IMG/VR virus record: IMGVR_UViG_3300023184_000079
Location: 1 to 64,000 of that record
Origin: a virus
Length of the DNA stretch: 64,000 nucleotides
Reading direction: 5' to 3' (one strand)
In this document: positions 10,405 through 63,814 of the stretch, piece by piece
Position numbering within the stretch: position 1 is the first letter of the stretch
Layout of the letters: each line of letters starts with the position of its first letter
Notes under the pieces: model-generated
What the model was told of the DNA's origin: nothing
The model's database searches: none
Seen by the model: the letters and a program-made list of their open reading frames with translations, nothing else
Translations under genes and position numbers: made by a program

Positions 10405-11385
10405 TTATAAATTACAAGCGGCAAATGCTATTTTAGAAATTGCTCTCGCAAGCCATTGTGGTGCTTTTTTCCATTGCTGGCCGCCCCCATATTCTCCCTC
10501 GTAGACCTGCTCAGGAGTAGTGTTAGAGAGAAACTCATTGATATAGTCTTTGTACTCTTCGGCTTCAATTTGAACCGCTTGTTCGCGGTCAAAGGCCCTT
10601 GCGTCATAACATAGGTACATATCACTAAGATCACGCCCGCCCATACGGAGGGCCGCTAGAGGCTTCTCAGTGTCGCTAACAAGCACAAACACTCCGGGAT
10701 GGCCCATATAACCGATGCCCTTTGGCGGGGGGCTATGGCGAATGCAATTGCCAAGTTCTTTCCCAGCCCGCCTATAGTCGTCGTCATTTGTTAGGCGGAT
10801 CATTTTCCAGCCGTTTTGATATTCATAAACAGGATTGAATTCGACCCAACGTGCACTGCCGATATAGCGAGAATTCTCCTGCACCCATGACGAAACATCT
10901 TCAACAGTCATGCCATCGATGTTTGGACGAGCAACCTGCTGAGGCATATTTTTAAGAATTATGGCGGCATTTTCAGTAACTGTGAGTAGCGATTCAGCGC
11001 GAGCATTCACTTCCGCAAGAGATTGCGGAATTCGTGCAGGATCAATCTCGGGAGGATTTGCCATATCAACAGGTCCAAGTTCGTTCATGTATTGGCGAGC
11101 CTGCTGCATTTCGTAATTGTTTGGGTCGTTCATCATTTGCTCAAACGATTGCAATATCTGCGTCATGTTACGAGTGAACCAACTGAAAAGTCTCCAAGAG
11201 GTTGGCTCGGCAGCGGCGAGAGTTTCCATACCCGTTTGAAGTGCATTCTTAATTGGCGGAGACAGCGCCTGAGCGCGGTTACTAGACATAATCTCTTGAA
11301 TAGCGGCTTGTGCGCGTTCCTCATCGTTTGCCATGAGGAGGAAAGACGAGAGCATTTCGACTCTTGTTTCAATTCTAAAAGCCAC
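10405..11385 (-). CDS. Leader-family protein (MAFRIETRVEML) with PcfJ-like domain
   Basis: Shared N-terminal leader; GWKMIRLTNDDDYRRAGKELGNCI resembles the PcfJ EG..M.HC motif. Confidence 0.65.
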   Translation of the reverse strand: MAFRIETRVEMLSSFLLMANDEERAQAAIQEIMSSNRAQALSPPIKNALQTGMETLAAAEPTSWRLFSWFTRNMTQILQSFEQMMNDPNNYEMQQARQYMNELGPVDMANPPEIDPARIPQSLAEVNARAESLLTVTENAAIILKNMPQQVARPNIDGMTVEDVSSWVQENSRYIGSARWVEFNPVYEYQNGWKMIRLTNDDDYRRAGKELGNCIRHSPPPKGIGYMGHPGVFVLVSDTEKPLAALRMGGRDLSDMYLCYDARAFDREQAVQIEAEEYKDYINEFLSNTTPEQVYEGEYGGGQQWKKAPQWLARAISKIAFAACNL

Positions 11386-11950
11386 GATACTTCCGATACG
11401 TTGCTGTCTTAAAAGAAAAACGAAATTGAAAATGATTTATATATTGTAAAGCCTCGCCAAGTGTAGAAAAAGAACCCGCCCTTCCAGAATTTTCCAAATA
11501 ATAATGTCCCGGATTGGGCCTTACAGGTTCAGGATCCTTGTAATCTCTCCAATATGGCCAAGTTTTTCTAGAACCGGGCGTTCTTGTAAAGTAATTTAAT
11601 AATTTTAAACTAAATTGATTTGGACCGGGAATTCCACTATCAGATATGTAATTTTCGTGAGAGCGTCCTTGCGGCGTGTTGCCATTGTAAGGAATGAATG
11701 CAACCTTTTCTGTCGGCCCCAATTTTGGTGGAAGAAGTTTGGTTTTTGCGGGAACAAGATCCCAAGGATTATTAGTCCAAGGACCTATATTTTCCGCAGT
11801 TATTTCATAGAGGTTATGCTTTTCATAATCCTCTGAAGAGCGAATGGGATAGGTATTCGCAGATTGCTGTTGATAGGCAATTTTTTCTTGTTCAGCAGAA
11901 AACTTATACCATTCTAAACGCTCTGCTGCTGTCTCAATACGAAAGGCCAT
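11375..11950 (-). CDS. Leader-family protein (MAFRIETAAERLEWYK)
   Basis: Real start taken as ATG 11950, because the track's upstream extension overlaps the MCP and a terminator. Confidence 0.7.
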   Translation of the reverse strand: MAFRIETAAERLEWYKFSAEQEKIAYQQQSANTYPIRSSEDYEKHNLYEITAENIGPWTNNPWDLVPAKTKLLPPKLGPTEKVAFIPYNGNTPQGRSHENYISDSGIPGPNQFSLKLLNYFTRTPGSRKTWPYWRDYKDPEPVRPNPGHYYLENSGRAGSFSTLGEALQYINHFQFRFSFKTATYRKYRGF

Positions 11951-11972
11951 TACACTTATTACTTTAGAGTTG

Positions 11973-12014
11973 TAGACCAAAAAGAAAGAGCCGCCCCCGA
12001 AGGGACGGCTCTGA
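11973..12014 (-). terminator. Terminator after major capsid gene; identical 42-nt copy at 35702-35743
   Basis: AGAGCCGTCCC-TTCG-GGGGCGGCTCT-TTCTTTTT on the minus strand. Confidence 0.85.
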
Positions 12015-12038
12015 CTTTCAATCTGATCTTTACTCTGA

Positions 12039-13109
12039 TTACGAGTAGAGACCGCGATCTTCGATGCTCGTACCCGGAGCACCATCGGTCTTGGGAGAAG
12101 CAGTGTACGAGTCGGACTTAACGACACGGGCGAGGCCGCGAGCGTTAAGCACGAGCATGCCCACGAGTTCGTCCATGACGAAGCCCTTGTAGAACTGCTC
12201 AACCTGATGGTTCTCTTCAACGTCAAGGCTGTACATGACGGGGAAGACGCCGACGTAGTTCGGCTCTGCGGCGAGGAAGATCTCGCCCTGTGGAACGATA
12301 ACCGACTTCATGAGTTCAAACTCACCGAACTGTGTGATGGCTTCGCCACCAACAGTCTTGTCCTTGAAGGCCCAACCGGTGACGTTGACATCCCATGTGT
12401 AGAGGTCACGCATGTCCTGCGGATGCATGAGCATGCGCTTGGCCTCTAGTTGTTCAATCTCAATCATCGAAACGGCAGAGTAGAAATCAACCGGCTCAAG
12501 CGGCGAACCAGCACCGACGAGAACGGTCTTCTCTGTGGAATGACCACCCGGACCGGCAGAGAGGCCAGTCGCGTAGCCACCGACGGGAGTTGTGCCGTTA
12601 GCGCCCTGCGAGACGATAGCAGACTCTAGGAGTAGGATAAGACGAGAGTCTTCCTGCTTCTGGATGGCCTGACGCGATTCGTCCTGTGCGTATTCAATTG
12701 CATTCACGCGGAGGTAATAGAGATCCTCTTTGCGGATGCGTGGGAATGCTGCGATGCGGAACAGTTGTGGGAAGGCCTGCTTGCCTTCAAACACCTGCAC
12801 CTTGACCTCGGCGTCAGTCTGATTCAAGACATACGCTTGACCAAGATCGTCAAGAATATCGTATGGCATGAGCGGACCGCGCTCTAGTGTGTCTTCGATG
12901 AGAACATTACGAGTAATGCCTTCGTAACGAAGACGAATCTGGATCGGACCGATCATACCCTGACCAATGCGCTGCATTGCATTGCTCTTGTCGGCTAGGA
13001 TCTGGGCGAGACGTTCCTTCTTTTGCGCTTGTGAGAGTTTGGGCAGATTTGCGAGTTTCTGCTCATACTCAGAACTAGCGACTGCTTTTCTGGCTGTTAC
13101 TAGGCTCAT
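12039..13109 (-). CDS. Major capsid protein
   Basis: 356 aa, strongly biased codons, followed by a strong terminator; HK97-like C-terminus (GFVMDELVGMLVLNARGLA); follows protease and decoration genes. Confidence 0.85.
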   Translation of the reverse strand: MSLVTARKAVASSEYEQKLANLPKLSQAQKKERLAQILADKSNAMQRIGQGMIGPIQIRLRYEGITRNVLIEDTLERGPLMPYDILDDLGQAYVLNQTDAEVKVQVFEGKQAFPQLFRIAAFPRIRKEDLYYLRVNAIEYAQDESRQAIQKQEDSRLILLLESAIVSQGANGTTPVGGYATGLSAGPGGHSTEKTVLVGAGSPLEPVDFYSAVSMIEIEQLEAKRMLMHPQDMRDLYTWDVNVTGWAFKDKTVGGEAITQFGEFELMKSVIVPQGEIFLAAEPNYVGVFPVMYSLDVEENHQVEQFYKGFVMDELVGMLVLNARGLARVVKSDSYTASPKTDGAPGTSIEDRGLYS

Positions 13110-13761: not shown

Positions 13762-16296
13762 TTAAGAAAATAGTGCCGAGTCTTCAATTTCGGTCGAATT
13801 CGGTTCTGTATGTGAATGTAGAATCCCGGCAGTCTTTAGCGACGGCACACGACCTGCGACCTTTTTGGACACGGGCTTATTGAGACCCGCCTTCTTAACG
13901 CTAGCGAGGGTCTCTTCACGGACATGTAATTGCTCCGGCGACTCATCTTCAAGATCAGCCGCGCGGTCGAACTTTTCTTCCTCTGGAATCATGCCCAGAG
14001 AAACCTCTGTCTCAGCAATCTTGAGGGCGCTGAAGATGTGAGCCTTCATGTTACCTCTTGACATTGCCTGACCCATGGGGCCACCGACCTGATTACCATT
14101 GCCGTCTGTGGTGACGGGTTGCCCGACATGCATCGGATCGGATCGGAATGTTTGAGTATCGGGACCGACCTCTTCACGAAGAGGAGCCGCAACATCGACC
14201 TGAAGGGCGGCGTTTTCAGCATTAAAATACTCAACGGACTTCTTACGACGACGAGCCTGACGACCCGTATCATAACCCGGTTCACGACCCGGCATACTGG
14301 GCATGTCTTCTTCCATACCAAATTCTTCTTCCATGCCCATCTCTGGCTCGCCCATTCCGGGTTCGCCTGCTTCTTCTTCCGAAATCTTCTCTTCGGCAAG
14401 ATCAAGAAGTTGCTCACCATCAAGGTTTTCAATAAAATCGGCCGCTTCGTCACCTAGTTCACGACGAATTAGTTCAATAATATCTTCGCCTTCTTCGTGC
14501 ATAACATCTTCGTGCATCTCGTGATCGCTATCAGCAAAACTGCCGATATCGCCAGACATATCGTCTTCCATGGGATCCATGGGGTCAACATCGCCGTAGG
14601 CTGCTTCTTTATCCTTCTTCTTATTTCTCATGAATGCAGGTAGTCCCTTCTTTTTCTTTTTTTCTTTGCCGTCAGCCTTCTCTTCGGCTTCAGAATCCTC
14701 TTCATCGTTCTTCTTTGACGCAGCAACGCCAATAGGACCTTGACCGGCGGAACCGACCTCAGAAGAGACAGGATTTTCCTGATTCTTGTTTGGGAAAGTT
14801 TTTGTACCCGGTGCGACCATGTCGCTTCCGGGATTTCGGATAAGGGCTTCTTGTTGCGTGTGCTTCTCAGCATCGCCAGTCATTTCGCCACCTACGGCTT
14901 CTAGATCCGCCTCATGCTCCTCAGAATCATTCCAAGCAGGCTCGGCAGCAGTTTTAGTTGCTGCAAGGTATTGAGTTAACTGTTCAAGAGCCTTGTCAAG
15001 TTTTGTTTCTTGATGAGACATAAAGTTAATTTCCTTGTTGTTCTTCGATTCGACAGGTTTCTGTGATTTCGATACTGGTTTTGGATTTACAACTTTGTCA
15101 GAAGTAATCCGATTTGGTGGTAGGATCGGTTTTTCAATCCTTGTTAAAAGACCACCGTTTTTAACAATAGTCCACTCACTATTTATATTTGCTGTATCTT
15201 TGTTTTTTACAGTAGACTGCAGATTTAGCGAGGGGGGACCGGCAGGGCCGGGTCGGGATTCAAACGGCGCTGGAAGTCCCGGCGCTGGAGGACCAGCGGC
15301 TGACGGAGGTGTTGTTCCCGGCATGTCAAGGTCGCCTTGACGTTCTTGGATATTCTCTTGTGCCGCTTCGATATCTGGATCGGCAAGGCTTTCCGGTGGC
15401 TGATGATCATCAAGGAGAGATTCTTCTGGCTGCTCGTAACCACAGACTTGGCACTTGCCGTCTTCCATAGTGTTACCACAGAGATCGCAAACTTTCTCTT
15501 GACGGAGAGTGTTGACGTGGTCGGGGGAGCGCTCAAGATCTGCCTGCGGCTTGTCGGCCTGCTTTTTTGCAGCCTGTTTCTTCACTTTGGATATCCTATC
15601 TAGAACTAGAGCCGTTTCATCAGCGGGATCAAAGACGTAAGAAATTTCAAAGAATCCAATGTCGTAACAATCTTCGTAAGAACGGCGACTTGTGCGCTCT
15701 CCTGTGCTAGAAACAAAATCAAATTCCGCGCCCTTGCTGTGAACATGATCGCAGTATTCGTCAGTCGATGTCGCCCAGTTGTCGCAGATGTTGCACTGAG
15801 TGCGCTCAACGTTCGCGCCCATTGAAACCGAATCGATGTCGCCAGAGATGATAGCCTTCGCAAGTTTTGGGAACTGGCGGGCGTCAGTCTCTAGAAGAAG
15901 TTCAATCCATGTCGGAGGCTTGTGATTGTCAGGTGCAAAAGCGTAATAAGGATCAAGAGCCGAAGCCTTCTTGAGGTCGTCTTCAACGTGCAGACGGGCG
16001 TCAATGATGACGCCACGGGCACGGCTTGGGTCCGTATTGTTATGGTCAACAAAGATTGGCTTACCAACGAACGTACGATACGCCTTAGACAGTTCTTCAG
16101 CAGGCCATCCATCATGGTTCTTGTTAACACGACTGGAGATGGCTCGCACCTTGGTGTAGATGTAGCCGTCTTGCAGACGATAGTTGTGCTCGTTGTCTTT
16201 GCCGATAGAGGCAAACTTGTTTAGTTTGGCACCAGCAACACGATGAGAACTGGATCGAACGTCTAGAATTTCTGCTTTTGCGAATTTAGTAAACAT
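13762..16296 (-). CDS. Prohead maturation protease fused to scaffold-like region
   Basis: N-terminal NKNHDGW...FVGKPIFVDH...SVSMG...C..C...FFEISYV.DPAD pattern of large-phage prohead proteases; acidic, low-complexity C-terminal half. Confidence 0.7.
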   Translation of the reverse strand: MFTKFAKAEILDVRSSSHRVAGAKLNKFASIGKDNEHNYRLQDGYIYTKVRAISSRVNKNHDGWPAEELSKAYRTFVGKPIFVDHNNTDPSRARGVIIDARLHVEDDLKKASALDPYYAFAPDNHKPPTWIELLLETDARQFPKLAKAIISGDIDSVSMGANVERTQCNICDNWATSTDEYCDHVHSKGAEFDFVSSTGERTSRRSYEDCYDIGFFEISYVFDPADETALVLDRISKVKKQAAKKQADKPQADLERSPDHVNTLRQEKVCDLCGNTMEDGKCQVCGYEQPEESLLDDHQPPESLADPDIEAAQENIQERQGDLDMPGTTPPSAAGPPAPGLPAPFESRPGPAGPPSLNLQSTVKNKDTANINSEWTIVKNGGLLTRIEKPILPPNRITSDKVVNPKPVSKSQKPVESKNNKEINFMSHQETKLDKALEQLTQYLAATKTAAEPAWNDSEEHEADLEAVGGEMTGDAEKHTQQEALIRNPGSDMVAPGTKTFPNKNQENPVSSEVGSAGQGPIGVAASKKNDEEDSEAEEKADGKEKKKKKGLPAFMRNKKKDKEAAYGDVDPMDPMEDDMSGDIGSFADSDHEMHEDVMHEEGEDIIELIRRELGDEAADFIENLDGEQLLDLAEEKISEEEAGEPGMGEPEMGMEEEFGMEEDMPSMPGREPGYDTGRQARRRKKSVEYFNAENAALQVDVAAPLREEVGPDTQTFRSDPMHVGQPVTTDGNGNQVGGPMGQAMSRGNMKAHIFSALKIAETEVSLGMIPEEEKFDRAADLEDESPEQLHVREETLASVKKAGLNKPVSKKVAGRVPSLKTAGILHSHTEPNSTEIEDSALFS

Positions 16297-27630: not shown

Positions 27631-28146
27631 TTAGTGTTTTATATGTAGGTCGTGCGTTTGCGGTTTAAGACTCTTAGGATTAAGCACCTCGCACAGACCG
27701 CCCTGCTTCGTACCGTCGGTAAAGATTACCCACCACTTACGTGGACGGAGTCCTAGATAAATCTCTGTCCGATCCCAATAAACTACTTCTGCAAGTTGTT
27801 GAGGGCCGCTTCCAACATGAGCAAAACAGAAGCCGGGGATGGGGCCGGGGTAGTCTCTGCTTGAAACAACCGAGTTATTGACCCCCGCTTTATCGCCTTT
27901 CATATCAAACTGGACTTCACGTACCCAGACAGAGGCCTTGAGTTCGCAACCATTGCACCAGCAGGTATCTTGGCGCTGTTCAGACTTAATGGTCAGAATA
28001 TTGTCTATGGCGTCCTGCATTATTTTTTCCCGTATCGTTGCTTCTTCTTTATTTGAGCCAACCGGGGTCTTTGTTGCCAGAAAGGTATTGCCGTCACGGT
28101 ATTCGTTGGCGTACTCTTCTTCTTTGATTTCTTCTTCTTCGTTCAT
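27631..28146 (-). CDS. Hypothetical protein
   Basis: Start MNEEEE overlaps the upstream stop (ATGA). Confidence 0.55.
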   Translation of the reverse strand: MNEEEEIKEEEYANEYRDGNTFLATKTPVGSNKEEATIREKIMQDAIDNILTIKSEQRQDTCWCNGCELKASVWVREVQFDMKGDKAGVNNSVVSSRDYPGPIPGFCFAHVGSGPQQLAEVVYWDRTEIYLGLRPRKWWVIFTDGTKQGGLCEVLNPKSLKPQTHDLHIKH

Positions 28147-31100
28147 ACTACGCCTTCTCCATCGCATACATCGCATTTGGCGGTGACTCTACCATCGGAG
28201 TCACAATCATAGCAAGTGGTTTGCCCGTGTCCATTGCATAATCCGCAAGTCACCCTCCCCGTGGCTTCACAACTCTCGCACGGCAGGCCATCAACGTGAC
28301 CGTCTCCATCGCAATATCCACATTGCGCCTTGCCGCTCCCTATGTACATACCGGGACGGCGGCGGTCGGTGACGGCCATGTCGCATCCGTCGCATTTTAG
28401 TTTCTCCGTGCCATCGCACTTAGGACATTTTATATTAACTTCGCCATTTCCTTTACAATTGGAGCAAGTGTTGTCTGTTACTAAGCCGTGTCCATTGCAG
28501 ATTTCGCAAATTTTCGAGAAATCCGAATACTCCGACAACCCATAACCACTGCACGTGTCACACATCTTAAGGGCAACCTCGTCGTTGCTCCCGGTTTCCG
28601 CGTCCGCCTGCGTTAGATCCATTATTCGAAAATAACCGTTATTAAATCTCATTATCGCAAGATTTTTACCCCCAATAGTAGGATCAGTTATTTCGCTTTC
28701 TGTAGCGTCCGGCGGTTCTAGTTTCATTCTGCTCAAAGTAGAAAGCGACTCGGCCAAATCCATTTGCGAGACAGCATGCGTTCCGTCCCGGGCACCGTCG
28801 TCCATTCCCAATGCTAACATGTCTGATGCATTGTTGCGCATTGCAATTTGAACCCACGCTGCATATTCTTCGACATACCCAACAGCCGGAAAATTTTTAC
28901 GCAAACTTGCGTTATGCCAAAGAATTTCAAGGCCTTGCCTATAGCCTTCCTCAAAATATTCGCTGATAATTCCGAAAGACTTCAAAAGATTTTTCATTCT
29001 GCGCTGATCCGTGCCTTTGTCGGTCGCAGCGAAACTTCCAGCGTAAGCAAGTATGTCGCTATTAACCGCGACAATAAGATCATTGGTAAAACCATTGTAT
29101 TTTGCAGGAACTAGGTTAGTAGGATTTGCTATTTGTGCAAGCGTGTCAACGTCATTAAAATAAACAAATGGCGTTTTGGCGTCAAATGTTTTTGACCACA
29201 TATCTAGTAAGTTGTCGTCTATCTTTCCACGCGCGAATTCAAGAATCATTTGAAATTTTCTATACTCATTTTCTTCCCCGAGCAGGCCATCCGTTGTGCA
29301 CTTGAAATAGTCAGAAAGAACTTCTGGATTTTCGTTATCAAGATGATAAAGTTCCATTCCCAAAGTATTATAAAGACGCTTCCAGTCCTCTCTCTCTATC
29401 ACGTTCCTCAGCCACCCCGGATCAGAACTTGTTTCGGCAACAATTTCCGCAATATCATATATAATCTTTATGAACGTAATCTCAGCCGCTCTTTGTATTT
29501 GTTGAAGAGTAGTCGATGGAGATAATGAGGGATAATTATAAACTTCATTATTAATAAATACTGGCGTTTTTTCGCCATTACCATTGTCGTTAACAACCCA
29601 CCAATCTGGACGTTCAATTTCTTGAAAAAGAGGCAACTGTTTATCTTCTATGTAAATCGAATGATCTTCTTTAACCTTTTGATATATACGATTAAAATAT
29701 TTCTGTTTTGCATTATCCACAGCCCGAGGGTCTGCCCGGTCTAAAACACCACCGTCTTCTAGTTCAACTTCTGCGTTATTGCCGTTGATATCCTGCTGAA
29801 TCAAATTGAATTGTTGGGCGCTAAAGATATTCTTGAAAGTCTCATAGTTTGAATAAAAATTTTGGTAGAATAGATATGCTCCGACACCGGGGTCTTCTGC
29901 AAAACTGCGCCGCCACTGCGTAAAAGAAATGTCTAAATCGCGCAGACACTGCCGAGTATCATCAATGGCATTTTCGGTTGCATAACTTTGCGATGCTATG
30001 GCGTCCAACAGGTCATTGCTGGAGACACTCTCATCAAGAAGGAACTCTACCATTTTTTGAATTGTTTCATTGGGTCTTGTACTATTTGCAACAATAGAGC
30101 GCAGCCCCACTCCCACGTTTGGCTTGCTGCCCAAGTCAATGGCAGGGTCTACGCTTGTGTTGAGGTACGACATAATAACGTAATAGTAGGCAGCGTTTTT
30201 TGCGCCAACCTGATCATAGAAGTCGTCGCCCATAGTGTCTTTTTTGGTGTCCTCCCGGCCCCGGGCAAGTCGTTCTGATATAAGATCAATAATTTCATTG
30301 AACGGCTCCTCGGCCGCCCGATTGTTACCGAAAACTTCTGAACAGAAGGAATCTCCGTCACGGAAGGCGTCGCCGACACCTTTCATTTGTAAATCTTTGC
30401 TCCAATATCGCACCCCCTCTTTCGCCTTTGCCGAAAGCGTTTTTATATTGCCAATCTCCTCCCCCTGCTCAATTCTGTAATAATTTTTGCCCTCGCGGAA
30501 AAAGAAAGTAATCAAAAGTATGATAACATCATGATATCTGTTTTTCGACCCTATATCTAACCCAACCAGTCCGATTATTTCTGCGACCATTGAGCGATAA
30601 TCGTCCGGATACTCGGCCCATCTGGAAGCGTTTTCCAACGCCTCTTCGTAAATCTCGTCTTCAATTCTTGTCAAAAGGGTTTCCTCTTCAAAGAATTCGG
30701 CAACGTTGACTACAATATCTGTTCTAAGTTCTGAGTCAAACATTTTTTTGCCGGATATTCCAAGAGCGGCTTTAAATCCCTTTGCCTGCTCTGCCCGTCG
30801 CCGTGACCCCTCGAAGGCCTCCGACGACAGGCTTGCGTATTCGACGACTCGTCGCTGCATTTCGTTGGCTCGTCGTATCTGTCTTCCCATCCCGCCGCCA
30901 CGCAGCGCGTCTTTGTTGAGATAAATATCTATTAGGTTAATAAAAATATTAGAAGTATTTTTTTCAGAAATAGATGACGCTTGTATTAACTTGCGGTTCT
31001 CTCGCATCGGTCCAAAGTCTGGATCAACATGCTCTGTATTGTTCTCTTTCGACCACCGTATGCCCTGAAGAACTTCTTCTGGTGAGTAGGTGTTCATATA

Positions 31101-32809: not shown

Positions 32810-33445
32810 CTATGGGGTAAAATTAATGCCGCTGTTCCAAATAAAATGGCTAGCCTTTTCCCAAAGTCGATCCTTTTGCTCCATGGACAGGCTGCCGTAT
32901 CTCGGGTCATCATACATGTCTTTGACCTGCTTGATTAATTGTGAGCAATGATTATAAAATTCAATTTGCGCCTGCTTGTCCGGTTCTTGATTTGGCTGTC
33001 CCGCCCCCGGAAACTGGATAAGGTCGCCTGCGGTTTTGACCGCTTCTTTTTTCTTTTTTTTATTCACGGATTCAAGTGATTCATTTTCTAAGAGAATCTT
33101 GGCCCAGTCTGGTTGTCCGGGTTTATTTTCGCCCACGGGATAGCGTGGAAAATACAGATCTGACCCGACCTCGCCGCGCGGTTTTTTCTTTTCTTTTTTC
33201 TTACCTGATTGTTTGTCGTCAAATTTGACAGACCACACCTCATGCGATCCACAATCGGGACAAGTAGGTGGTATATCGAAGACATCATAGCCGCCTCGTT
33301 TTCCGCAGCCATAACATTCCATAGTGTTCCACAATTCGGATCGAAGACCGTCTTCAACTTCGTCCCAACTAAAATTACCTTTCTCGTCAACAGACTTTTT
33401 GAACCACTTCCAACGCTCGTTTGCTGTTTCAAATTTAAATGCCAT
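32810..33445 (-). CDS. Leader-family protein (MAFKFETANERWKWF) with zinc ribbon
   Basis: Shared leader; CYGC...CPDC. Confidence 0.75.
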   Translation of the reverse strand: MAFKFETANERWKWFKKSVDEKGNFSWDEVEDGLRSELWNTMECYGCGKRGGYDVFDIPPTCPDCGSHEVWSVKFDDKQSGKKKEKKKPRGEVGSDLYFPRYPVGENKPGQPDWAKILLENESLESVNKKKKKEAVKTAGDLIQFPGAGQPNQEPDKQAQIEFYNHCSQLIKQVKDMYDDPRYGSLSMEQKDRLWEKASHFIWNSGINFTP

Positions 33446-33449: not shown

Positions 33450-33959
33450 TCACATTCCTAAATGATCAAAAAACTTTTTTTCTTTGCTCTGTTCTTTGTT
33501 CCTAAGATCATGGACTCGCCATCGATGTTTTGATTCGTCGAATTCCAAGTTGTCAAATCTGGTTTTCCATTGTTCTCCGACGAGGGTTGGGTCCATAAAA
33601 CCGGAATTTGCATAAGTCTTTTGCATGTCGTCAAAGATATAGTTCCAGTCTATTTTTCTTTCGTCTATAAATCCAGAGTTGTCATAGAAATCTTGAAGTA
33701 TTTTATTATTGTATGGGCCTAGCCATTTTCCAATAACATACTCTGCCAATCTCTGCGGCCCCGCGCCATCCGCCCCCATGCCTTTTCTTACGACACCCCA
33801 AGCGTCTTGGATACTGTTGTTGTTGTTGTTATTCATCTCTGTTCGGACTTGTTGTGTTTCGTAATTTGGAGCATCTTGATACGGAGCGTCTTGATCAAAA
33901 AGGCGACCAGAGAGATACCACTTCCAACGCTCGTTCGCTGTTTCAAATTTAATCGCCAT
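33450..33959 (-). CDS. Leader-family protein (MAIKFETANERWKWY)
   Basis: Start placed at the leader Met. Confidence 0.75.
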   Translation of the reverse strand: MAIKFETANERWKWYLSGRLFDQDAPYQDAPNYETQQVRTEMNNNNNNSIQDAWGVVRKGMGADGAGPQRLAEYVIGKWLGPYNNKILQDFYDNSGFIDERKIDWNYIFDDMQKTYANSGFMDPTLVGEQWKTRFDNLEFDESKHRWRVHDLRNKEQSKEKKFFDHLGM

Positions 33960-34488
33960 TTTTAAATTCAACCTGAACATTTCTCATCCTGTTAAAGACA
34001 ACAGTCATATATAGGAAATCATAAACAAGTTTAAAAAAATCATTTGCATTCATATCATTGATATAAACATCTGGATCAGAGATAACCGCTTGAGCCACCA
34101 TTTTGATATGTTCGGAAATTTCTAAAAGGGTTTGTTTTGCCTCGTCGGCCCATTTAGATTCACTCATCGGCCCTAAAAGTACCCAGTCCTTGTCTTCAGG
34201 CTCCCATCTCTTGAGCACCTCAACAAGACCAAGCGCAGCATCATAAATAGTTTCGGCAGTTTCTGGAACTAAATCAATAGGGTCTCTTCCCTGAGCAAGA
34301 AGGGGGGACAGAAATTCATTATTGATATCGGTTAGCAAAGGTTGAATTCGGACAGCCTGATCAACATACTCTAGATCTTTGTCTACCCGATCCCATGATC
34401 CGTCGGTGGCTGGTTCATCCTGCCAATCGGACTGCTTACGATTGAACCACTTCCAACGCTCGTTTGCTGTTTCAAATTTAAATGCCAT
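33949..34488 (-). CDS. Leader-family protein (MAFKFETANERWKWF)
   Basis: Start placed at the leader Met. Confidence 0.75.
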   Translation of the reverse strand: MAFKFETANERWKWFNRKQSDWQDEPATDGSWDRVDKDLEYVDQAVRIQPLLTDINNEFLSPLLAQGRDPIDLVPETAETIYDAALGLVEVLKRWEPEDKDWVLLGPMSESKWADEAKQTLLEISEHIKMVAQAVISDPDVYINDMNANDFFKLVYDFLYMTVVFNRMRNVQVEFKNGD

Positions 34489-58022: not shown

Positions 58023-58559
58023 CTATAGCAGAGTGGGAGGATCCCAGAATTCAAGCCATTGATCCCGATCTACATCGGTGCCAGTAAATATATCTAGGGG
58101 CGAAAATTTTGCATCAAGAAACCTATGATAGTATTCTGGTTTGATATCTGAATTATGTCTTCCTGTAAGGTTTGCCGAACTTAGATCCAATTCAGTATCC
58201 AGTGTTGCACGAGGAATATTATTCGGATCTCTGAGCGAATATATTGCCATGTTTGGCAATGCTGAGTCTGCCGCCTCGCCAGCATATTCTTCCCATCTAT
58301 CAGATATAAAATCTTGATCCGACCATTTATCGCGCTCAATGCCTTCCCATTCGCATGGAGGAGACAAACAATTGCCTACCAGTTCACCTTCACGAACAAG
58401 GTCTTTCCATGTTTGCGGTTGTCTAATAGTCCATCCATCGGGGAATGTATAGATAATTTTGCTAGTATCTTCTGGGAGTTGGGCCGCTCTATTCAGAAGT
58501 TGAGTGGTTGTTTCTGCCGCTTGATGCAGCATCTCCGCTCTTGTTTCAATACGCTTCAT
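58023..58559 (-). CDS. Leader-family protein (MKRIETRAEML) with PcfJ-like domain
   Basis: GWTIRQPQTWKDLVREGELVGNCL...IYSLRDPNNIPRATL. Confidence 0.7.
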   Translation of the reverse strand: MKRIETRAEMLHQAAETTTQLLNRAAQLPEDTSKIIYTFPDGWTIRQPQTWKDLVREGELVGNCLSPPCEWEGIERDKWSDQDFISDRWEEYAGEAADSALPNMAIYSLRDPNNIPRATLDTELDLSSANLTGRHNSDIKPEYYHRFLDAKFSPLDIFTGTDVDRDQWLEFWDPPTLL

Positions 58560-58599: not shown

Positions 58600-59172
58600 A
58601 TGTGGCGTATATCAACTAGAAAAGAAATGCTATTTAAGACGGCGGAAGAAGAGAGGGTAGAAGTTAACCCAAACACAAGAAATCAGTCTCAATGGTATTT
58701 TAATATCTATGAGATTAGTGAGGTTTATGGCGGTTCAGAAGAGGGTGGTTGGTATTATACTGCTGGCGAGCCTGTTGAAAGCATAAAACTTAAAAATCCT
58801 TTTCCGGAGAATGCGTACATTTCCCCACAAGAAGATGGCGGTAACGAGGCATATTTTGAAAAAGAAAATACAGAAGTAGACGATTTTCTTAAGTTTTTTG
58901 AAAGCAAAGGGTATACTTTTAATGGCAAAAACAGATTCAAAACAAGCCCCCAACAAGCCGAACAAGAGGATTTCGCTAACGCGCAAAGAAATTATGGTCC
59001 CGATGAGGCTGCTGAAGTTTATTTAGAGGGTTCTAAAGCCATGGAAGAGTTCGCTCAAGGGCATCCGGAATTGTTGGACAAGTGGTACATGGATCAATAC
59101 ACCGATTATTCTTATCGGATTGAAGACCACCCCGGCAGATCATTCCCCCAACAGGGGCAATACTACCAATAA
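58600..59172 (+). CDS. Leader-family protein (MWRISTRKEML) with YGGxEEGGW motif
   Basis: The only convincing plus-strand gene; divergent from 58559. Confidence 0.7.
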   Translation: MWRISTRKEMLFKTAEEERVEVNPNTRNQSQWYFNIYEISEVYGGSEEGGWYYTAGEPVESIKLKNPFPENAYISPQEDGGNEAYFEKENTEVDDFLKFFESKGYTFNGKNRFKTSPQQAEQEDFANAQRNYGPDEAAEVYLEGSKAMEEFAQGHPELLDKWYMDQYTDYSYRIEDHPGRSFPQQGQYYQ

Positions 59173-59746
59173 CCTATGTGGCGCATATCTACTAGACGAG
59201 AGATGTTATCTGATTTTGATGACGGTAAAAATCCGTTTGACCTCCGCTCACGTTGCGGACCTCAAAACTAATACAATACTCATAAAAAGTGAAGATAACG
59301 TATTAGTTTTGAGGAGAGTCTTTGACGTTGTTCACGTATAGAGTGTATTGCGTGTGATCTGGTGCGACGCTCATGTGTCCATTACGAGACTCTCGTATGT
59401 CCAATAGTGTGGTTGTTATGTCGTCTTTGACGTTGTAGATAAGCCCGGTGTGTATCTACATGTGTGTGCGGAACCGTATCAGTTTGATACGCTATAGCAC
59501 ATGGCGTGTTGTGTACTACTGCAGGTGTACGCCATCATGTATCCTCTGCAGGCGATTACCTGCAAATGGCTTGTATCTCTCTAGGTGGTACTTTCCAAGT
59601 GTAGGATCGGTTCTAGGCATTACCGCTTGTTGTGTCTAGGCATTCGTGAAGATTGGGTCTGAGAGGTTCTCTTTGTCTGCGAAATATCGTGCATACGGAC
59701 GATATTTCGTGCATACTTGGGTCGTGAATCTGGCTCGCATAAAGAT

Positions 59747-59798
59747 GCGAGTTAAAGGCGTTTAACCCTGCGTAATCGCTTATTTATGCGAGTTAACG
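59747..59798. repeat. Imperfect direct repeat, copy 1 (copy 2 at 63874-63924)
   Basis: GCGAGTTAAAG..GT.TAACC.....TAATCGC...TTTATGCGA.(.)TAACG. Confidence 0.6.
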
Positions 59799-60437
59799 TA
59801 GCAAAGATGCTAGTTTATCGTATTGGAAATAAGACTCATTTAATGATATCGCCTCTGGTGAAATCGGCCCTTTGTATGAAAAAGTTTTTAAATTGAATAT
59901 TGATTCTTGAACAAATTTCGGCTGATCTATTATGTGAGATTGCGACTCAGCGTACTCGCCAAGTGATTGCTGCCCCGGCTCAAGTTTGTGATGAATATTA
60001 ATTAGATTTTTGGGATGAAGTCTAAAGTGTTCAGGTAAGGAATCAATACCCTCAATCTCCATATTTGTATCTAGGGCATCTTCATCAAAATCTACTTTTG
60101 ATGGATCCAGTTGTCTTGCGTCTATTTTGAATTGACAAAACGTTTTACTGTCAGTTCTTAGATAAACATGATTTGCTCTTGGTTCCCCAACTGTTCTATC
60201 GTAGACACTTTTACCAAGAACGTCCCATGGTATTAGACCGTTTTGCAATATGCTTTGAATAGTTTTAATTCCCTCTTCATCAATTCTTGCAGACATATTT
60301 TGATGATATACAAAAGGATATGTCTGAATGAACGTATTCCACCAACGCTGATCAACAGCCATGCTTAAAAGCGTAAACCTGTGGCCGCCCTGTGAATAGC
60401 CATAGATCATCTCTTTTCTTGTTTCAATACGTTTCAC
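59793..60437 (-). CDS. Leader-family protein (MKRIETRKEMI) with ART/Tpt1-like fold
   Basis: VYH...SILQNGLIPWD...HVYL...IDARQLD...DED...YKGPISPEAI. Confidence 0.6.
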   Translation of the reverse strand: MKRIETRKEMIYGYSQGGHRFTLLSMAVDQRWWNTFIQTYPFVYHQNMSARIDEEGIKTIQSILQNGLIPWDVLGKSVYDRTVGEPRANHVYLRTDSKTFCQFKIDARQLDPSKVDFDEDALDTNMEIEGIDSLPEHFRLHPKNLINIHHKLEPGQQSLGEYAESQSHIIDQPKFVQESIFNLKTFSYKGPISPEAISLNESYFQYDKLASLLR

Positions 60438-61243
60438 TATTGAAATCCCATTTCAAATGATCCCGGCTCTGAGCCCATCTCTTCATGAAGCGGATTCATT
60501 GTTCTTTGGCGTTCTGTGGCCACCCATATAGCGGCTTGTGTATCGCGAGGAGATTGGCCGTATTCCTTCGCAATTCTCCGAATAGCGTTTTGAATTGCTC
60601 TTCTTGCTGGATTTCCCACACTTCGCAAAGAATCAAATCCTGCTGCTCTTGCAATAATGACATCTACGGCAATTGCATCAGGATCGCCAGTCATGGCTTT
60701 AAAGAATTCAGTGACCTTGGGTCCGGTAACATACTGTTCAAAATTTGATTCGTCTGCTATGAGAACATTGAAAGCGGCTCTAAGGTTTGATGAATTCTTA
60801 AGTTTTATTTCATCAAACGGAAATGTCGGACCGACTGGGTGAGTATCCATAGGACCCCTCCCCCATGGACCGGCCGACCATTCGCCTTGTTCATTTATTT
60901 CAGCCACAGGATTCGTAACGAAGCCTGCTCCATGTTTTAAAACGTAAGAGATTATCTCTTTTGCTTTTCTAACATTAATTGCCCATTCTACTTGTGGACT
61001 GGTGACTGCGATGACAGCGGCCACTCTTTCGGGAGATACTGCGCCATTGAATTCGTCACTTATATTTTGACAAAGGTTGAAAGCATTTGGGTACCAGTTA
61101 ACCCCTTCGGAAAAAGCGCGTTCTTTTCCATAAATATTAAGAATTTTTCTAAACCGTCTGGAATAGAGATTTTCCTGACTGTTATCTTTAATACTGGCCG
61201 CAGCATTAAAGATCATTTGATCTCTGGTTTCAAGACGTTTCAT
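60437..61243 (-). CDS. Leader-family protein (MKRLETRDQMI), possible HhH-glycosylase-like fold
   Basis: WY...AAVIAVTSPQ..W..N...GPKV..F...AIAVD...QAAIW. Confidence 0.55.
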   Translation of the reverse strand: MKRLETRDQMIFNAAASIKDNSQENLYSRRFRKILNIYGKERAFSEGVNWYPNAFNLCQNISDEFNGAVSPERVAAVIAVTSPQVEWAINVRKAKEIISYVLKHGAGFVTNPVAEINEQGEWSAGPWGRGPMDTHPVGPTFPFDEIKLKNSSNLRAAFNVLIADESNFEQYVTGPKVTEFFKAMTGDPDAIAVDVIIARAAGFDSLRSVGNPARRAIQNAIRRIAKEYGQSPRDTQAAIWVATERQRTMNPLHEEMGSEPGSFEMGFQ

Positions 61244-61245: not shown

Positions 61246-61938
61246 CTATCCTATACCAAGTGTTTGTGTTGCTTGTTGACCGACTTCAGACCAATAGTCC
61301 TCACTGGGAAATCTTCCGGGATTGTTGGGGTCACCATTCTGTATCAACTTCATGTTGTTTGTTGATAGTTCCTGTATATCGGGAGGCAAAGAATTGAAAT
61401 ACTCTTCTGTTTGCGGTTCAATAAATTGTATGCCGCTTTCAACCAATTTCTGAGCCATCGCGTTTGCATCAATTTCTTGCTCTCTTCTCTGGTGTATCTT
61501 TTGTGTTTCCAACCAATCAGTGGTTCGTTCACGAGGCGCATTTTCAAATTCTCTTTCTTCCATATATTGGTACAGATGCTGTAACTCATGGATAAAAATG
61601 TAGTTTGCATTTTTTGGAGTTTGATATTGAAAAAGATATATTCTATACTCTTTGCCGCGCTGCGGCCTCCTCCACTGAACGCTGACGTTCTTGTAGTTTC
61701 CAATTCTAATTATCAAAGGAGCATCTAATCCAAAAACTGGATCAAATATTAACTTATTGACAAGATCCTCATTGACTTTAAAATACGGCAAATACTCACC
61801 AACAACATCAACTTCGACTTTGACAGGAGAATTGTGCCGTGCGGGACCTTGTCGGTTTTTGATTGCTTCTGCAAATGGTTGCCAATCATTGGCTGCTGGT
61901 ACAGAAAGCATTTGCATTCTTGTTTCTATGCGCTTCAT
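61246..61938 (-). CDS. Leader-family protein (MKRIETRMQML), HExxH metallopeptidase-like
   Basis: FIHELQHLYQ...EIDANAMA. Confidence 0.65.
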   Translation of the reverse strand: MKRIETRMQMLSVPAANDWQPFAEAIKNRQGPARHNSPVKVEVDVVGEYLPYFKVNEDLVNKLIFDPVFGLDAPLIIRIGNYKNVSVQWRRPQRGKEYRIYLFQYQTPKNANYIFIHELQHLYQYMEEREFENAPRERTTDWLETQKIHQRREQEIDANAMAQKLVESGIQFIEPQTEEYFNSLPPDIQELSTNNMKLIQNGDPNNPGRFPSEDYWSEVGQQATQTLGIG

Positions 61939-61939
61939 A

Positions 61940-63355
61940 CTACCGCGCAGGCCCGAGAAAAAGTTTATCCAGTTCATCACCCGTGAGTGGCCGACCCCAT
62001 GCGTCTAAGACGACGGGCAGCACTATATCCGCTATCGCTTCTAAAGGCACAGTTCCCCAATATGCGAGAGTCTTGTTATGTTGAAGAGATTTCTGAGTAA
62101 CATCTGGGTCATCAAGAATCTCTGCATTTTCCTCTGCCCAAGCCCCAAGACTTTCTGGGCCACTTTCCGGCCACCATTCTGGATGGCTTGTAGGATAGGA
62201 CCGAATTCCATCAAACATCTCATTATTTGGATTTTTAAGATATTCGTCTTCAACATAGTCTTCATCTGCTGAGAATCTTGATGCTTCTAGTTTGCGTAGG
62301 TCTATAGTGAGTCTTACGCCGTCTCCATGAAAGTGGGGACTTATATCCTTAACATGCATATAAACAAATCCTGCTCTAGGGATAACGTGTGCGAGGCCGT
62401 CGTCAATATACTTTTCTTCTACTCTTGAATTTGGAATTTCATCCCATGGCATTAGGCCGTTTTTGAGGATTCCCTCAAGGCTTTCATAACTTGTGTCATG
62501 GTAGGCATAGGGGCCGTTTTGTTCAATCCATTCTTGTAAATCTTCTGGCCGCATAGCCATTGCCTTTTTGGAGAACATTGGCTGATATTTGTAGCGGGGA
62601 GTGCCATCTTCATATTGAGTGAATTCGTCTTCGTAATCATCGTAGGCAATAGTGTTGACGCTGTTTGGCGAGGGCTCAGTTCCTGCTGGGTAATATGAGG
62701 CGATACTTATATTTTGAGCCGGGATTACACCAAGATATACGAAAGCGCCATTAGAACGTAATTCTTTCCACAACTCGGTCAAATCACTTCTTTGTTGACG
62801 GCTCATTTTCATAATTTCATCGAAAAGAATACCGCCCGATGTGTCATTTTCCATCCAGTAGAAAAAACTTTCGGCATTTTGTGGTGCTTCTGGGGCTTTG
62901 TTTCCATTTATTCCCCATTCAACAAAGAATTCGGGGAATCCTGCTTCTCTGATATCAACGTATGCCTCTTCCCAACCTTCTACTGTGCCATCATATGCAT
63001 CGCTTACACGAACAGCAAGAAATTGATTTAATTCCTCTGGATCAGGAATAATCTTTTGAAGATCAAGTCCAGTAATTTTAAGAATGACTGGATCTCCGCC
63101 CGGATATCCCTCGCTCTTAGCAAGAGAACTTTCGTTGAAGGACCATTCTTGAGCCGTGGCTATTGTAGAAGCAAGATAAACTCCATTCTCAGCCACACTG
63201 TGCCTTGGGAAATTCTTATTTGCAATACCTCTACCAGTCGGCGTCAAGCCATGATCCCGAATAGACTGGAGGTTGAGTTCGCTAGTGACGTGATACCATA
63301 CGTTTGTATCGTATGGCATAGAGAGCATCTGTCGTCTTGTTTCTATGCGTTTCAT
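61940..63355 (-). CDS. Leader-family protein (MKRIETRRQML) with two tandem ART/Tpt1-like domains
   Basis: WYHVTS..NLQSIRDHGLTP...GVYLA and AYHDTS...ILKNGLMP...FVYM. Confidence 0.65.
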   Translation of the reverse strand: MKRIETRRQMLSMPYDTNVWYHVTSELNLQSIRDHGLTPTGRGIANKNFPRHSVAENGVYLASTIATAQEWSFNESSLAKSEGYPGGDPVILKITGLDLQKIIPDPEELNQFLAVRVSDAYDGTVEGWEEAYVDIREAGFPEFFVEWGINGNKAPEAPQNAESFFYWMENDTSGGILFDEIMKMSRQQRSDLTELWKELRSNGAFVYLGVIPAQNISIASYYPAGTEPSPNSVNTIAYDDYEDEFTQYEDGTPRYKYQPMFSKKAMAMRPEDLQEWIEQNGPYAYHDTSYESLEGILKNGLMPWDEIPNSRVEEKYIDDGLAHVIPRAGFVYMHVKDISPHFHGDGVRLTIDLRKLEASRFSADEDYVEDEYLKNPNNEMFDGIRSYPTSHPEWWPESGPESLGAWAEENAEILDDPDVTQKSLQHNKTLAYWGTVPLEAIADIVLPVVLDAWGRPLTGDELDKLFLGPAR

Positions 63356-63361
63356 TATCTA

Positions 63362-63814
63362 TTATTGTCTAGTCGGCGCAGGATAAGTTGCAAAACCTAT
63401 CTGACTGGGATACAGATACGATGGCAGGTAATTATGCTCATCGGTAAGGAGTTCTGGGTCAATCATTTGGCGGCTTTTCAGGCCTTTTCTTCTGCCCCGC
63501 ATTACTTGAACTGGCACAAGTTGATTGTCTTCTGCCGCCATCAAGCGGTGATTGCCTTCTGATACATGAGCCTGACCTGTTAAGTCATTGTAATCAACAA
63601 TGATTGCATTATCATACTGCTGGCCGCGAAGTTCTTCAACTTTGTCCCAATCAGCGATATCATTGCCTTCCATACCACGAAGATCACCGGCTCTGACGTA
63701 TTCCACATTAGGATAGCCGGGTAATGTGACTGGGTGTTTTGCTCTTTCTTCGTTAGGAACTTTATTCCAAAGCCATGAGAGCATTTGCCGTCTTGTTTCT
63801 ACACGTTTTGCCAT
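63362..63814 (-). CDS. Leader-family protein (MAKRVETRRQML) with ParB/Srx-like domain
   Basis: AIIV...VSEGNHRLMAA....VPVQV. Confidence 0.7.
   Translation of the reverse strand: MAKRVETRRQMLSWLWNKVPNEERAKHPVTLPGYPNVEYVRAGDLRGMEGNDIADWDKVEELRGQQYDNAIIVDYNDLTGQAHVSEGNHRLMAAEDNQLVPVQVMRGRRKGLKSRQMIDPELLTDEHNYLPSYLYPSQIGFATYPAPTRQ

What the first reader, a model, noticed from the sequence alone, without database searches (positions are those of the whole stretch)
10405..63814. 14 unrelated proteins share an N-terminal leader: candidate capsid-targeting cargo/effector system
Seen, type A leaders: MAFRIETAAERLEWY (11950), MAFKFETANERWKWF (33445, 34488), MAIKFETANERWKWY (33959), MAFRFETANERW.WY (35026, 35617). 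Type B leaders: MAFRIETRVEML (11385), MKRIETRAEML (58559), MWRISTRKEML (58600), MKRIETRKEMI (60437), MKRLETRDQMI (61243), MKRIETRMQML (61938), MKRIETRRQML (63355), MAKRVETRRQML (63814). After 12-28 aa the bodies are mostly unrelated: ART-like, HExxH, ParB/Srx, PcfJ-like, glycosylase-like, zinc ribbon. Two members sit directly behind the major capsid gene, and several follow the late motif. Established analogy: T4 internal proteins use a 10-aa capsid targeting sequence that the prohead protease removes, and are co-injected with DNA. Inference: an independent, larger address-tag system that loads a variable arsenal of host-takeover or anti-defence enzymes into the head. It could be usable for protein packaging.
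Basis: partly seen in the sequence, partly recalled or inferred. Interest (0 to 1): 0.92.

Follow-up and report, generated by a model that had tools for sequence, protein, structure and literature searches.

The report
Shared N-terminal tag on phage cargo
Sixteen otherwise unrelated genes of an uncultured freshwater phage begin with the same 11-15 amino acids, most likely an address tag that loads counter-defence enzymes into the virus head, though loading itself has not been shown.

Summary
All 14 starts are as listed. I found two more members: a 31-aa stub at 59176(+), and a 615-aa PcfJ-like/pentapeptide-repeat protein at 64033(+) of the same 81.6-kb record, just outside the window. A loose peptide pattern hits 16 places in six frames, all at an ORF's start. 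The DNA patterns occur 7 and 5 times, against 0.01 and 0.00 expected.

Conservation is at the amino-acid level, because wobble positions vary. The tag is portable:
- Orthologues at 52% identity keep it while the linker changes length.
- One relative has a domain inserted behind it.
- AlphaFold leaves it outside the folded body.

The bodies fall into at least 11 unrelated groups. One is an ADP-ribosyltransferase fold. Its relatives sit inside giant multidomain proteins that also carry Acb1, CCA-adding, 2H or PcfJ domains.

The phage is a myovirus distantly related to Bxz1/E3. One or two tagged genes lie directly behind the capsid gene in three phages of its subclade.

Loading into the head, cleavage and late timing remain inferred. 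The scan has noted analogous tags with other sequences in other phages. Verdict: a new variant of the T4 capsid-targeting-sequence kind, confidence about 0.45.

The parts
11375..11950 (-). Type A leader gene (191 aa), first gene behind the capsid gene. It is preceded by TAATAAGTGTA-ATG.
10405..11385 (-). Type B leader gene (326 aa, GTG start) with a PcfJ-like body, second gene behind the capsid gene.
32810..33445 (-). Type A leader gene (211 aa) with a CxxC...CxxC zinc ribbon.
33450..33959 (-). Type A leader gene (169 aa).
33949..34488 (-). Type A leader gene (179 aa). Its stop codon lies inside the next gene's leader codons.
34478..35026 (-). Type A leader gene (182 aa) with a DUF7249 body. 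It is preceded by TAATAGTTACA-ATG.
35054..35617 (-). Type A leader gene (187 aa), head of the tandem array. It is preceded by TAATAGATGCA-ATG.
58023..58559 (-). Type B leader gene (178 aa), a short PcfJ-like relative of 11385 and 64033. It follows the motif.
58600..59172 (+). Type B leader gene (190 aa, MWRISTRKEML), divergent from 58559 across a 40-nt spacer. It follows the motif.
59176..59271 (+). Type B leader on a 31-aa stub (MWRISTRREML), possibly a remnant.
59793..60437 (-). Type B leader gene (214 aa, GTG start) with an ADP-ribosyltransferase-fold body. The closest solved structure is DarT1.
60437..61243 (-). Type B leader gene (268 aa) with a DUF7178 body.
61246..61938 (-). Type B leader gene (230 aa) with an HExxH motif (HELQH).
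61940..63355 (-). Type B leader gene (471 aa). Its C-terminal half is homologous to the ART-fold body of 60437. It follows the motif.
63362..63814 (-). Type B leader gene (150 aa) with a ParB_N-like body (lead only).
12039..13109 (-). Major capsid protein gene.
11987..12012 (-). Terminator-like hairpin (11 pairs, 8 G-C, T run) between the capsid gene and the first leader gene.
13762..16296 (-). Prohead protease fused to a long C-terminal (scaffold-like) part. This is the inferred docking partner and processing enzyme.
28143..32777 (-). 1544-aa orphan ORF directly downstream of the type A array. It has the same upstream motif but no leader.

Best explanation
SHOWN. A short N-terminal peptide exists in two homologous forms: A, about 15 aa, and B, about 11 aa. 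It is kept by selection on the amino acids and sits on at least 11 unrelated protein bodies. It stays at the extreme N-terminus when bodies, linkers or extra domains change. It lies outside the folded body. Its genes are gained and lost between close relatives. All of these genes lie in units headed by one promoter-like motif placed so close to the ATG that the mRNAs would be nearly leaderless.

INFERRED. The peptide is an address tag that docks each protein to one common partner. The most likely partner is the prohead core formed by the 844-aa protease-scaffold protein. Tagged proteins would then be enclosed by the capsid shell, stay in the head with the DNA and enter the next host with it. 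There the ART-fold, PcfJ-like, ParB-like, HExxH and pentapeptide-repeat bodies would act before any phage gene is expressed.

On this reading the phage carries, as separate tagged genes, the kind of arsenal that other phages and plasmids fuse into giant polyvalent proteins. Whether the protease removes the tag is open. The identical leader-coding DNA also serves as a recombination joint for swapping bodies.
For: - Position: 16 of 16 pattern hits are at ORF starts.
- Amino-acid constraint: at the invariant residues, entropy at codon positions 1/2/3 is 0.23/0.00/0.78 for type B and 0/0/0.59 for type A.
- Portability:
  - P0009 and P0010 are 52-53% identical orthologues of 60437 and keep the tag, while the linker is about 13, 5 or 2 residues.
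  - P0007 keeps the tag of 61243 and has about 200 residues inserted before the DUF7178 body.
  - In the AlphaFold model of 60437 (mean pLDDT 86.8), residues 1-12 are below 50.
- Head context:
  - Tagged genes sit directly behind the capsid gene here (2), in G002 (2) and in G003 (1), with different bodies. G001 has none.
  - A protease-scaffold gene is present.
- Shared control: TAATA[GA]-N2-5-ATG heads 9 ORFs of 100 aa or more, against 0.07 in shuffles. These are 7 leader genes, the 1544-aa gene and a tail-fibre-like gene in the structural block. The motif differs from the TTGACA-type repeats of the 44-57 kb region.
- Composition: GC3 is 0.39 in leader genes, 0.47 in structural genes and 0.73 in the early region.
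- Cargo type:
  - The 60437 body matches DarT1 at Z 7.1, with almost all 50 listed rows being ART folds.
  - 21 of its 51 non-self homologues are proteins of 1000 aa or more.
  - Those scanned carry Acb1, CCA-adding plus HD, GNAT or 2H domains, and in P0020 a PcfJ domain.
  - The 64033 body has pentapeptide repeats at E 1e-99.
- Precedent:
  - T4 internal proteins and the ART Alt are loaded by 7-20-residue N-terminal propeptides and otherwise share nothing (passages of PMC3012670, PMC9026906 and PMC5694885).
  - Polyvalent-protein hubs include the metallopeptidase, ART and DdrB-ParB domains (passages of PMC5512222).
Against: - No virion proteome, no N-terminal processing data and no timing data exist. 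The phage is uncultured.
- Four relatives of 93-100% estimated completeness have homologous capsid and protease-scaffold genes but no such tag. Head assembly therefore does not need it, and a conserved receptor is not implied.
- The type B island (58-66 kb) lies outside the structural block.
- 14 of 16 members are acidic to near neutral (pI 4.3-6.4; the exceptions are 11950 at 9.2 and the 31-aa stub at 8.0). T4 internal proteins are described as basic (PMC9026906 passage).
- Type B has E or Q at the only candidate cut position, and two members have S in place of the other E. A T4-type cut after Glu is therefore not conserved.
- Only about half of the genome was seen (completeness 52), so a partner enzyme could be encoded in the unseen part.
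- Analogous tags noted earlier by this scan received low later odds for the head-loading reading, and one was reassigned to a radical-SAM partner.
Confidence: 0.45

Rival explanations
1. The peptide is an address or recognition tag for a common partner that is not the capsid. Candidates are a modifying enzyme, a chaperone, a host hub protein or an export route.
For: Every result that shows a portable peptide tag fits this equally well. An earlier follow-up of this scan reassigned a similar phage tag to a neighbouring radical-SAM enzyme (note e1-127136). About half of this genome is unseen. The type B island is not in the head module.
Against: No radical-SAM or other obvious modifier was found among the 33 different proteins of the 81.6-kb record, or the 10 of contig L105, that I scanned against Pfam. 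Not all ORFs were scanned. The tag has no hydrophobic stretch as secretion signals do. The conserved slot behind the capsid gene in three phages is unexplained on this reading.
Confidence: 0.25
2. The peptide controls amount or lifetime. It would act as a degron or as a nascent-chain or N-terminal translation-control element that keeps potentially toxic enzymes low or briefly present in the producing cell.
For: Several bodies are enzymes that could harm the producer: an ART fold close to DarT, a ParB-like body and an HExxH body. The mRNAs would be nearly leaderless, so the first codons could matter for initiation.
Against: Wobble positions vary freely, which argues against an RNA-level signal. 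ORFs behind the TTGACA-type repeats, which would also be nearly leaderless, lack the peptide. Nine of 16 members lack the motif and sit inside operons, yet keep the peptide. Many bodies are small non-enzymatic proteins.
Confidence: 0.12
3. The shared 5' end is mainly a DNA-level recombination handle for cassette exchange, and the peptide itself has no function.
For: - Leaders in the array are near-identical in DNA.
- Stop codons of the upstream genes lie inside the next leader (ATGGCATTTAA read as ..GI*). P0002 and P0004 end the same way.
- The slot behind the capsid gene holds 0, 1 or 2 different cassettes in close relatives.
- The type A array is an expansion specific to this phage.
Against: Type B leaders differ at many synonymous sites (135 synonymous against 142 non-synonymous pairwise codon differences) while four residues are invariant. 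Orthologues at 52% identity keep the peptide. Homology this short and this diverged is a poor recombination substrate. I read this as a secondary effect of the tag, not its cause.
Confidence: 0.08
4. The members are one fast-evolving paralogue family in which only the N-terminal helix is still recognisable.
For: Type A members have similar sizes (169-211 aa). Weak similarity extends a little beyond the leader in some pairs.
Against: Type B bodies are demonstrably different: pentapeptide repeats, DUF7178, an ART fold and HExxH. Bodies without the leader are unrelated by BLASTP. The leader is outside the fold.
Confidence: 0.05

Closest known systems
Capsid targeting sequence (CTS) of phage T4 internal proteins IPI-III and Alt
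   Same: Both are short N-terminal peptides shared by otherwise unrelated proteins. In both, the gene set varies between relatives, includes an ADP-ribosyltransferase, and the phage has a prohead protease and a scaffold core (passages of PMC3012670, PMC9026906, PMC5694885).
   Different: - There is no sequence match to cultured phages.
- The phage lineage differs: the capsid protein is 52% identical to Bxz1/E3-type myoviruses and the protease is fused to a scaffold-like part.
- There are two tag forms and 16 genes.
- The cargo is mostly acidic.
- No conserved Glu cut site exists in type B.
- Loading and cleavage are untested here.
Polyvalent proteins of phages and conjugative elements (Iyer et al. 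2017, PMC5512222)
   Same: The domain repertoire overlaps: ART, HExxH metallopeptidase, ParB-like. Homologues of the 60437 body are internal domains of proteins of 1000-3053 aa that also carry Acb1, CCA-adding, GNAT, 2H or PcfJ domains.
   Different: Here the domains are mostly separate genes, each with its own tag, rather than one polypeptide. Only 63355, 64033 and the relative P0007 combine two modules.
Identical N-termini of the processed head paralogues gp53/gp54 of giant phage SPN3US
   Same: The N-terminal residues are conserved on diverged head proteins, which the authors compare with the T4 CTS. The type A leader contains A-x-E, the form of the SPN3US cleavage motif (PMC5694885 passages).
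   Different: Those proteins are paralogues, and their processing was shown by mass spectrometry. Here the bodies are unrelated and nothing was measured.
Cargo-loading peptides of encapsulins
   Different: Those peptides are usually C-terminal, bind the shell protein directly, and are not delivered to another cell (recalled).

Membership tests
T4-type capsid targeting sequence system | A short (about 7-20 aa) N-terminal peptide shared by proteins that are otherwise unrelated | tested here: met
   16 ORFs carry it and form at least 11 unrelated body groups.
T4-type capsid targeting sequence system | Sequence homology to the T4 tag | tested here: not met
   tblastn of both leader types against 50,697 phage records at E up to 10 gave no match. 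That the collection holds T4-like phages is assumed, not checked. The similarity is therefore one of kind, not of descent.
T4-type capsid targeting sequence system | Tagged proteins are present in proheads and virions | not testable with these tools
   The phage is uncultured.
T4-type capsid targeting sequence system | The tag is removed by the prohead protease at a consensus site | tested here: inconclusive
   A protease is present. Type A has A-x-E at residues 8-10. Type B has E or Q at the matching place. No cleavage data exist.
T4-type capsid targeting sequence system | The genes are expressed with the head genes | tested here: inconclusive
   The upstream motif is shared with two genes of the structural block, and composition is nearer to structural than to early genes. 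No usable transcript data were obtained.
Polyvalent proteins (Iyer et al. 2017) | 2 to 15 conflict-related domains in one polypeptide | tested here: not met
   Most members have one body. Only 63355, 64033 and P0007 have two modules. The domains belong to that repertoire.
ADP-ribosyltransferase fold (body of 59793-60437 and C-half of 61940-63355) | ART fold | tested here: met
   The model has pLDDT 86.8. VIA-align gives DarT1 Z 7.1 (rmsd 3.7, 137 aligned), DarTG 5.5 and KptA 5.4, and almost all 50 rows are ART-fold proteins. Foldseek alone found nothing at E 0.001 or better. Z below 8 is moderate. Catalytic residues were not assessed.
PcfJ-like (10405-11385, 58023-58559, 64033-65880) | Match to Pfam PF14284 | tested here: inconclusive
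   Pfam gives no hit at E up to 0.1 for 11385 and 58559, and none at E up to 0.01 for 64033. The Atlas feature score is 0.93 to a cluster where 33% carry PcfJ, and the structural TM is 0.44-0.49.
ParB/Srx (63362-63814) | Match to ParB_N | tested here: inconclusive
   Pfam gives no hit. The Atlas score is 0.95 to clusters where 58% and 29% carry ParB_N, and the TM is 0.49-0.50.

The most novel reading that the evidence does not exclude
The two leader forms are a two-letter address code of a head-loading system that arose independently of T4's. Type A would load many copies of small acidic proteins. Type B would load few copies of enzymes. Both would dock on the protease-scaffold core, and new cargo would be captured by recombination in the leader DNA. 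The phage would thus carry an 'unbundled' polyvalent arsenal that it injects with its DNA, and the 11-15-residue tags could be reused to pack foreign proteins into HK97-type shells.
Probability: 0.15. Interest if true: 0.8.

Novelty: new variant of a known kind. Interest (0 to 1): 0.6.

Why it matters
If the tag loads proteins into the head, it marks by sequence alone which proteins a phage delivers with its DNA. These are the first counter-defence proteins to reach the host. It would also link them to the giant polyvalent proteins of other elements: the same ART-like and PcfJ-like modules are fused elsewhere and separately tagged here.

It would show that T4-style head targeting arose more than once, here in a lineage with a protease-scaffold fusion. 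It would also give a short peptide that might direct foreign proteins into such shells.

The scan has noted analogous tags with other sequences in other phages. The kind may therefore be widespread and is barely described in print. My two searches for it returned only T4 and giant-phage work.

Tried and rejected
**Searches for the leader elsewhere**
- Cultured phages: none.
- IMG/VR: only G002 and G003 for type A, none for type B.
- 596 Gb of prokaryote genomes: none.
- Metagenome contigs: 5 stretches, of which 2 (L103 and L105, overlapping) are real and 3 are chance.
- The 5.8-billion protein set: P0002, P0004, P0005 and P0007 only.
- Close relatives of 61243 in IMG/VR: none.

**Sequencing runs**
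- All four laid runs are contigs.
- RNA contigs lie on parts of the capsid, decoration and other head genes, and none on 10302-12037. This shows nothing about expression.
- DNA run X3, about 94% alike, has contig ends and loose ends at 11973-12014, over the terminator hairpin. One loose end resembles window 35674-35703. This is a hint of rearrangement only.

**Structure**
- The type A model (35026) had mean pLDDT 57. I did not search with it.
- Foldseek against PDB gave no match at E 0.001 or better for the 60437 model.
- phmmer of the protease-scaffold protein against PDB sequences gave nothing.

**Other checks**
- Pfam and PHROGs left most bodies unnamed.
- A search for a modifying enzyme as partner found none among the 43 proteins scanned. 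Half of the genome is unseen.
- A literature search on PcfJ gave nothing useful.
- A leader profile found no weaker copies inside the protease-scaffold or other head proteins. The members it scores highly were its own training set.
- I rejected the translation-signal reading.
- Supplements of the papers were not opened.

Full report
**The observation.** The starts at 11385 and 60437 are GTG. A six-frame peptide scan of the window finds one more, MWRISTRREML at 59176(+), on a 31-aa ORF. The window is bases 1-64000 of an 81,644-bp virus record with estimated completeness 52. Scanning the whole record adds a 16th member at 64033(+), 615 aa, starting MAFRIETRQEML.

With a loose pattern, all 16 hits lie within the first 7 residues of an ORF and none is internal. 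Back-translated DNA patterns occur 7 and 5 times in the window, against 0.01 and 0.00 expected from 100 shuffles each. An unsupervised clustering of all candidate N-termini recovers groups of 9 and 5 in this record.

**Peptide or nucleotide signal.** At the residues that never change, the entropy at codon positions 1, 2 and 3 is 0.23, 0.00 and 0.78 for type B (4 codons, 10 genes). For type A it is 0, 0 and 0.59 (7 codons, 6 genes). Arg, Ile, Thr and Leu each use several codons. Types A and B are variants of one tag: the two adjacent genes at 11950 and 11385 both begin MAFRIET and then diverge into the A and B forms.

**Portability.**
- Two orthologues of the 60437 protein, 52-53% identical to it, keep the tag. 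The stretch between the tag and the first conserved body residues is about 13, 5 or 2 residues long.
- P0007 has the first 15 residues of the 61243 protein, then about 200 extra residues, then the DUF7178 body.
- An AlphaFold model of the 60437 protein (17-row alignment, mean pLDDT 86.8, pTM 0.82) leaves residues 1-12 below pLDDT 50, and confidence rises only from about residue 30.
- With the first 16 residues cut off, BLASTP at E<0.05 links only {11385, 64033, 58559} and {60437, 63355}, a 12-residue extension shared by 35026 and 35617, and one 22-residue match at E 0.019.

**What the bodies are.**
- 64033: pentapeptide repeats at E 1e-99 behind a region homologous to 11385.
- 61243: DUF7178 at E 8e-24.
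- 35026: DUF7249.
- 61938: contains HELQH, with a sub-threshold match to a putative metallopeptidase family.
- 33445: has CxxC...CxxC.
- 11385 and 63814: the protein Atlas gives PcfJ-like and ParB_N-like leads at scores 0.93 and 0.95. These are leads only.
- 60437: Foldseek found nothing significant for the model. The exhaustive aligner ranks DarT1 first (Z 7.1, rmsd 3.7, 137 residues), then DarTG and KptA/Tpt1, and almost all 50 rows are ADP-ribosyltransferase folds. Z 7 is moderate, but the list is homogeneous.
- 63355: its C-terminal half is homologous to the 60437 body.

**Link to polyvalent proteins.** A full HMMER search with the 60437 protein found 52 proteins at E up to 0.001. Of the 51 that are not the query itself, 21 have 1000 aa or more, and the match is an internal domain. 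I scanned nine of these giants against Pfam.
- Four gave no family: P0011, P0014 and P0021 at all, and P0013 only a weak Tpt1 match.
- The other five carry Acb1 (P0015), CCA-adding or poly(A)-polymerase plus HD (P0012, P0017), GNAT (P0017), a 2H phosphoesterase (P0019), and PcfJ (P0020).

So the ART-like and PcfJ-like modules that are separate tagged genes here are fused in one protein elsewhere. Iyer et al. 2017 (passages read) describe such multidomain proteins as delivered with the DNA of phages and plasmids. They name the metallopeptidase, ART and DdrB-ParB domains among the hubs.

**The phage and its relatives.** The window encodes a tail sheath, a major head protein (E 2e-92) and an 844-aa protein whose N-terminal part matches head maturation proteases. 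The capsid protein is about 52% identical to those of Gordonia, Rhodococcus E3 and cluster C mycobacteriophages such as Bxz1. E3 has the same gene order: portal, protease, small structural protein, capsid. No leader is visible on the 25 E3 proteins I read.

IMG/VR holds 85 relatives of the capsid gene. Only those at 85-86% identity have the tag. G002 has two type A genes and G003 one, always directly behind the capsid gene and with bodies unrelated to those here. G001 and a 4-kb fragment have none in that slot.

A 13-kb metagenome contig (L105) carries two tandem type B genes and one type A gene next to homologues of genes at 65.9-67.3 kb of this record. It also has a possible TTG-start variant whose body matches the C-terminus of this record's 1055-aa protein.

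Four relatives of 93-100% estimated completeness (capsid identity 70-75%) have nothing comparable, either by clustering or by a leader profile. In that profile search the members score 17.2 bits or more and the next hit 9.4. The members were the training set.

**Gene organisation.**
- A terminator-like hairpin (11 pairs) follows the capsid gene. Then comes TAATAAGTGTA-ATG of the first tagged gene.
- The five type A genes at 32.8-35.6 kb lie head to tail, upstream of a 1544-aa orphan ORF. Relatives have only a roughly 100-aa homologue of part of that ORF there, and no array.
- Two upstream genes in the array end inside the next gene's leader codons. P0002 and P0004 end the same way. This fits recombination at the leader DNA, as earlier notes on this window proposed.
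- TAATA[GA]-N2-5-ATG occurs 12 times in the record. Nine sites start ORFs of 100 aa or more, against 0.07 in shuffles: seven tagged genes, the 1544-aa gene and a tail-fibre-like gene at 22700.
- The repeats in the 44-57 kb region are different and hold TTGACA-type elements.
- GC3 averages 0.39 in tagged genes, 0.47 in 16 structural genes and 0.73 in 11 ORFs of the early region.

These points suggest, but do not show, that the tagged genes are not early genes.

**Explanation.** The data show a portable N-terminal peptide under protein-level selection on unrelated bodies. The closest documented precedent is the T4 capsid targeting sequence. There, N-terminal propeptides of 7-20 residues load the internal proteins and the ADP-ribosyltransferase Alt onto the prohead core and are then cut off, and the internal proteins of T-even phages share only that sequence (passages of PMC3012670, PMC9026906 and PMC5694885).

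The fit here rests on three things: the slot behind the capsid gene, the presence of a protease-scaffold protein, and the nature of the cargo. I put head loading at about 0.45.

**Points against.**
- Nothing was measured.
- Complete relatives with the same head genes lack the tag.
- The type B island is outside the head module.
- The cargo is mostly acidic.
- Type B has E or Q at the only candidate cut position.
- A partner could be encoded in the unseen half of the genome.
- An earlier follow-up in this scan reassigned a similar tag to a radical-SAM enzyme. I found no such enzyme among the 33 different proteins of the record and the 10 of L105 that I scanned against Pfam.

**Novelty.** The leader has no match in 50,697 cultured-phage records or in 596 Gb of prokaryote genomes. 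In IMG/VR it is confined to two contigs. My two literature searches for such systems returned T4 and giant-phage work only. This does not prove that nothing is in print. The scan has noted analogous tags with other sequences in other phages, which I did not check. I class this as a new variant of a known kind.

**Limits.** Sequencing runs gave contigs only.

Noticed in passing
window 28143-32777 (-): This is a 1544-aa orphan ORF with a DnaJ-type CxxCxGxG zinc finger near its C-terminus. It has almost no relatives in cultured phages. Close relatives have only a roughly 100-aa homologue at this place. It shares the TAATAG-ATG motif with the leader genes.
   Followed up: partly
window 33949-33959 and 34478-34488 (-): The stop codon of the upstream gene lies inside the next gene's leader codons, so the upstream protein ends ..NGD or ..NGI. 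Database proteins P0002 and P0004 also end in GI, so they too are probably followed by a leader gene.
   Followed up: partly
window 44000-58000: Families of 50-75-nt direct repeats hold TTGACA-type elements just upstream of ORF starts on the minus strand. This is a promoter class different from the TAATAG motif. The region has GC3 of 0.73.
   Followed up: partly
window 46793-47695 (-) and 42371-44251 (-): These ORFs encode a Ku-domain protein (E 2e-21) and an SNF2-family helicase (E 4e-31).
   Followed up: no
window 12039-13109 (-): The only solved relative of the capsid protein by sequence is the entry named 'Gp27 major capsid protein' (6wkk, E 4e-22).
   Followed up: no
L105 3302-3658 (+): This is a possible TTG-start leader variant (GKRLATRQEML, 9.4 bits). 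Its body is 45% identical to the C-terminal 105 residues of this record's untagged 1055-aa protein at 67357-70524.
   Followed up: partly
window 11973-12014: In DNA run X3 (about 94% alike), contigs end here, over the terminator hairpin behind the capsid gene. One loose end resembles window 35674-35703, upstream of the type A array.
   Followed up: no
G003 2400-5700 (+): Several ORFs have PVGPVGP-type collagen-like repeats at their starts in the relative G003. The N-terminus clustering picked them up as a false group.
   Followed up: no
window 51254-52090 (-): An untagged ORF in the early region gives the same sub-threshold match to putative metallopeptidase family DUF6782 (E 7e-4) as the tagged HExxH protein at 61246-61938.
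   Followed up: no
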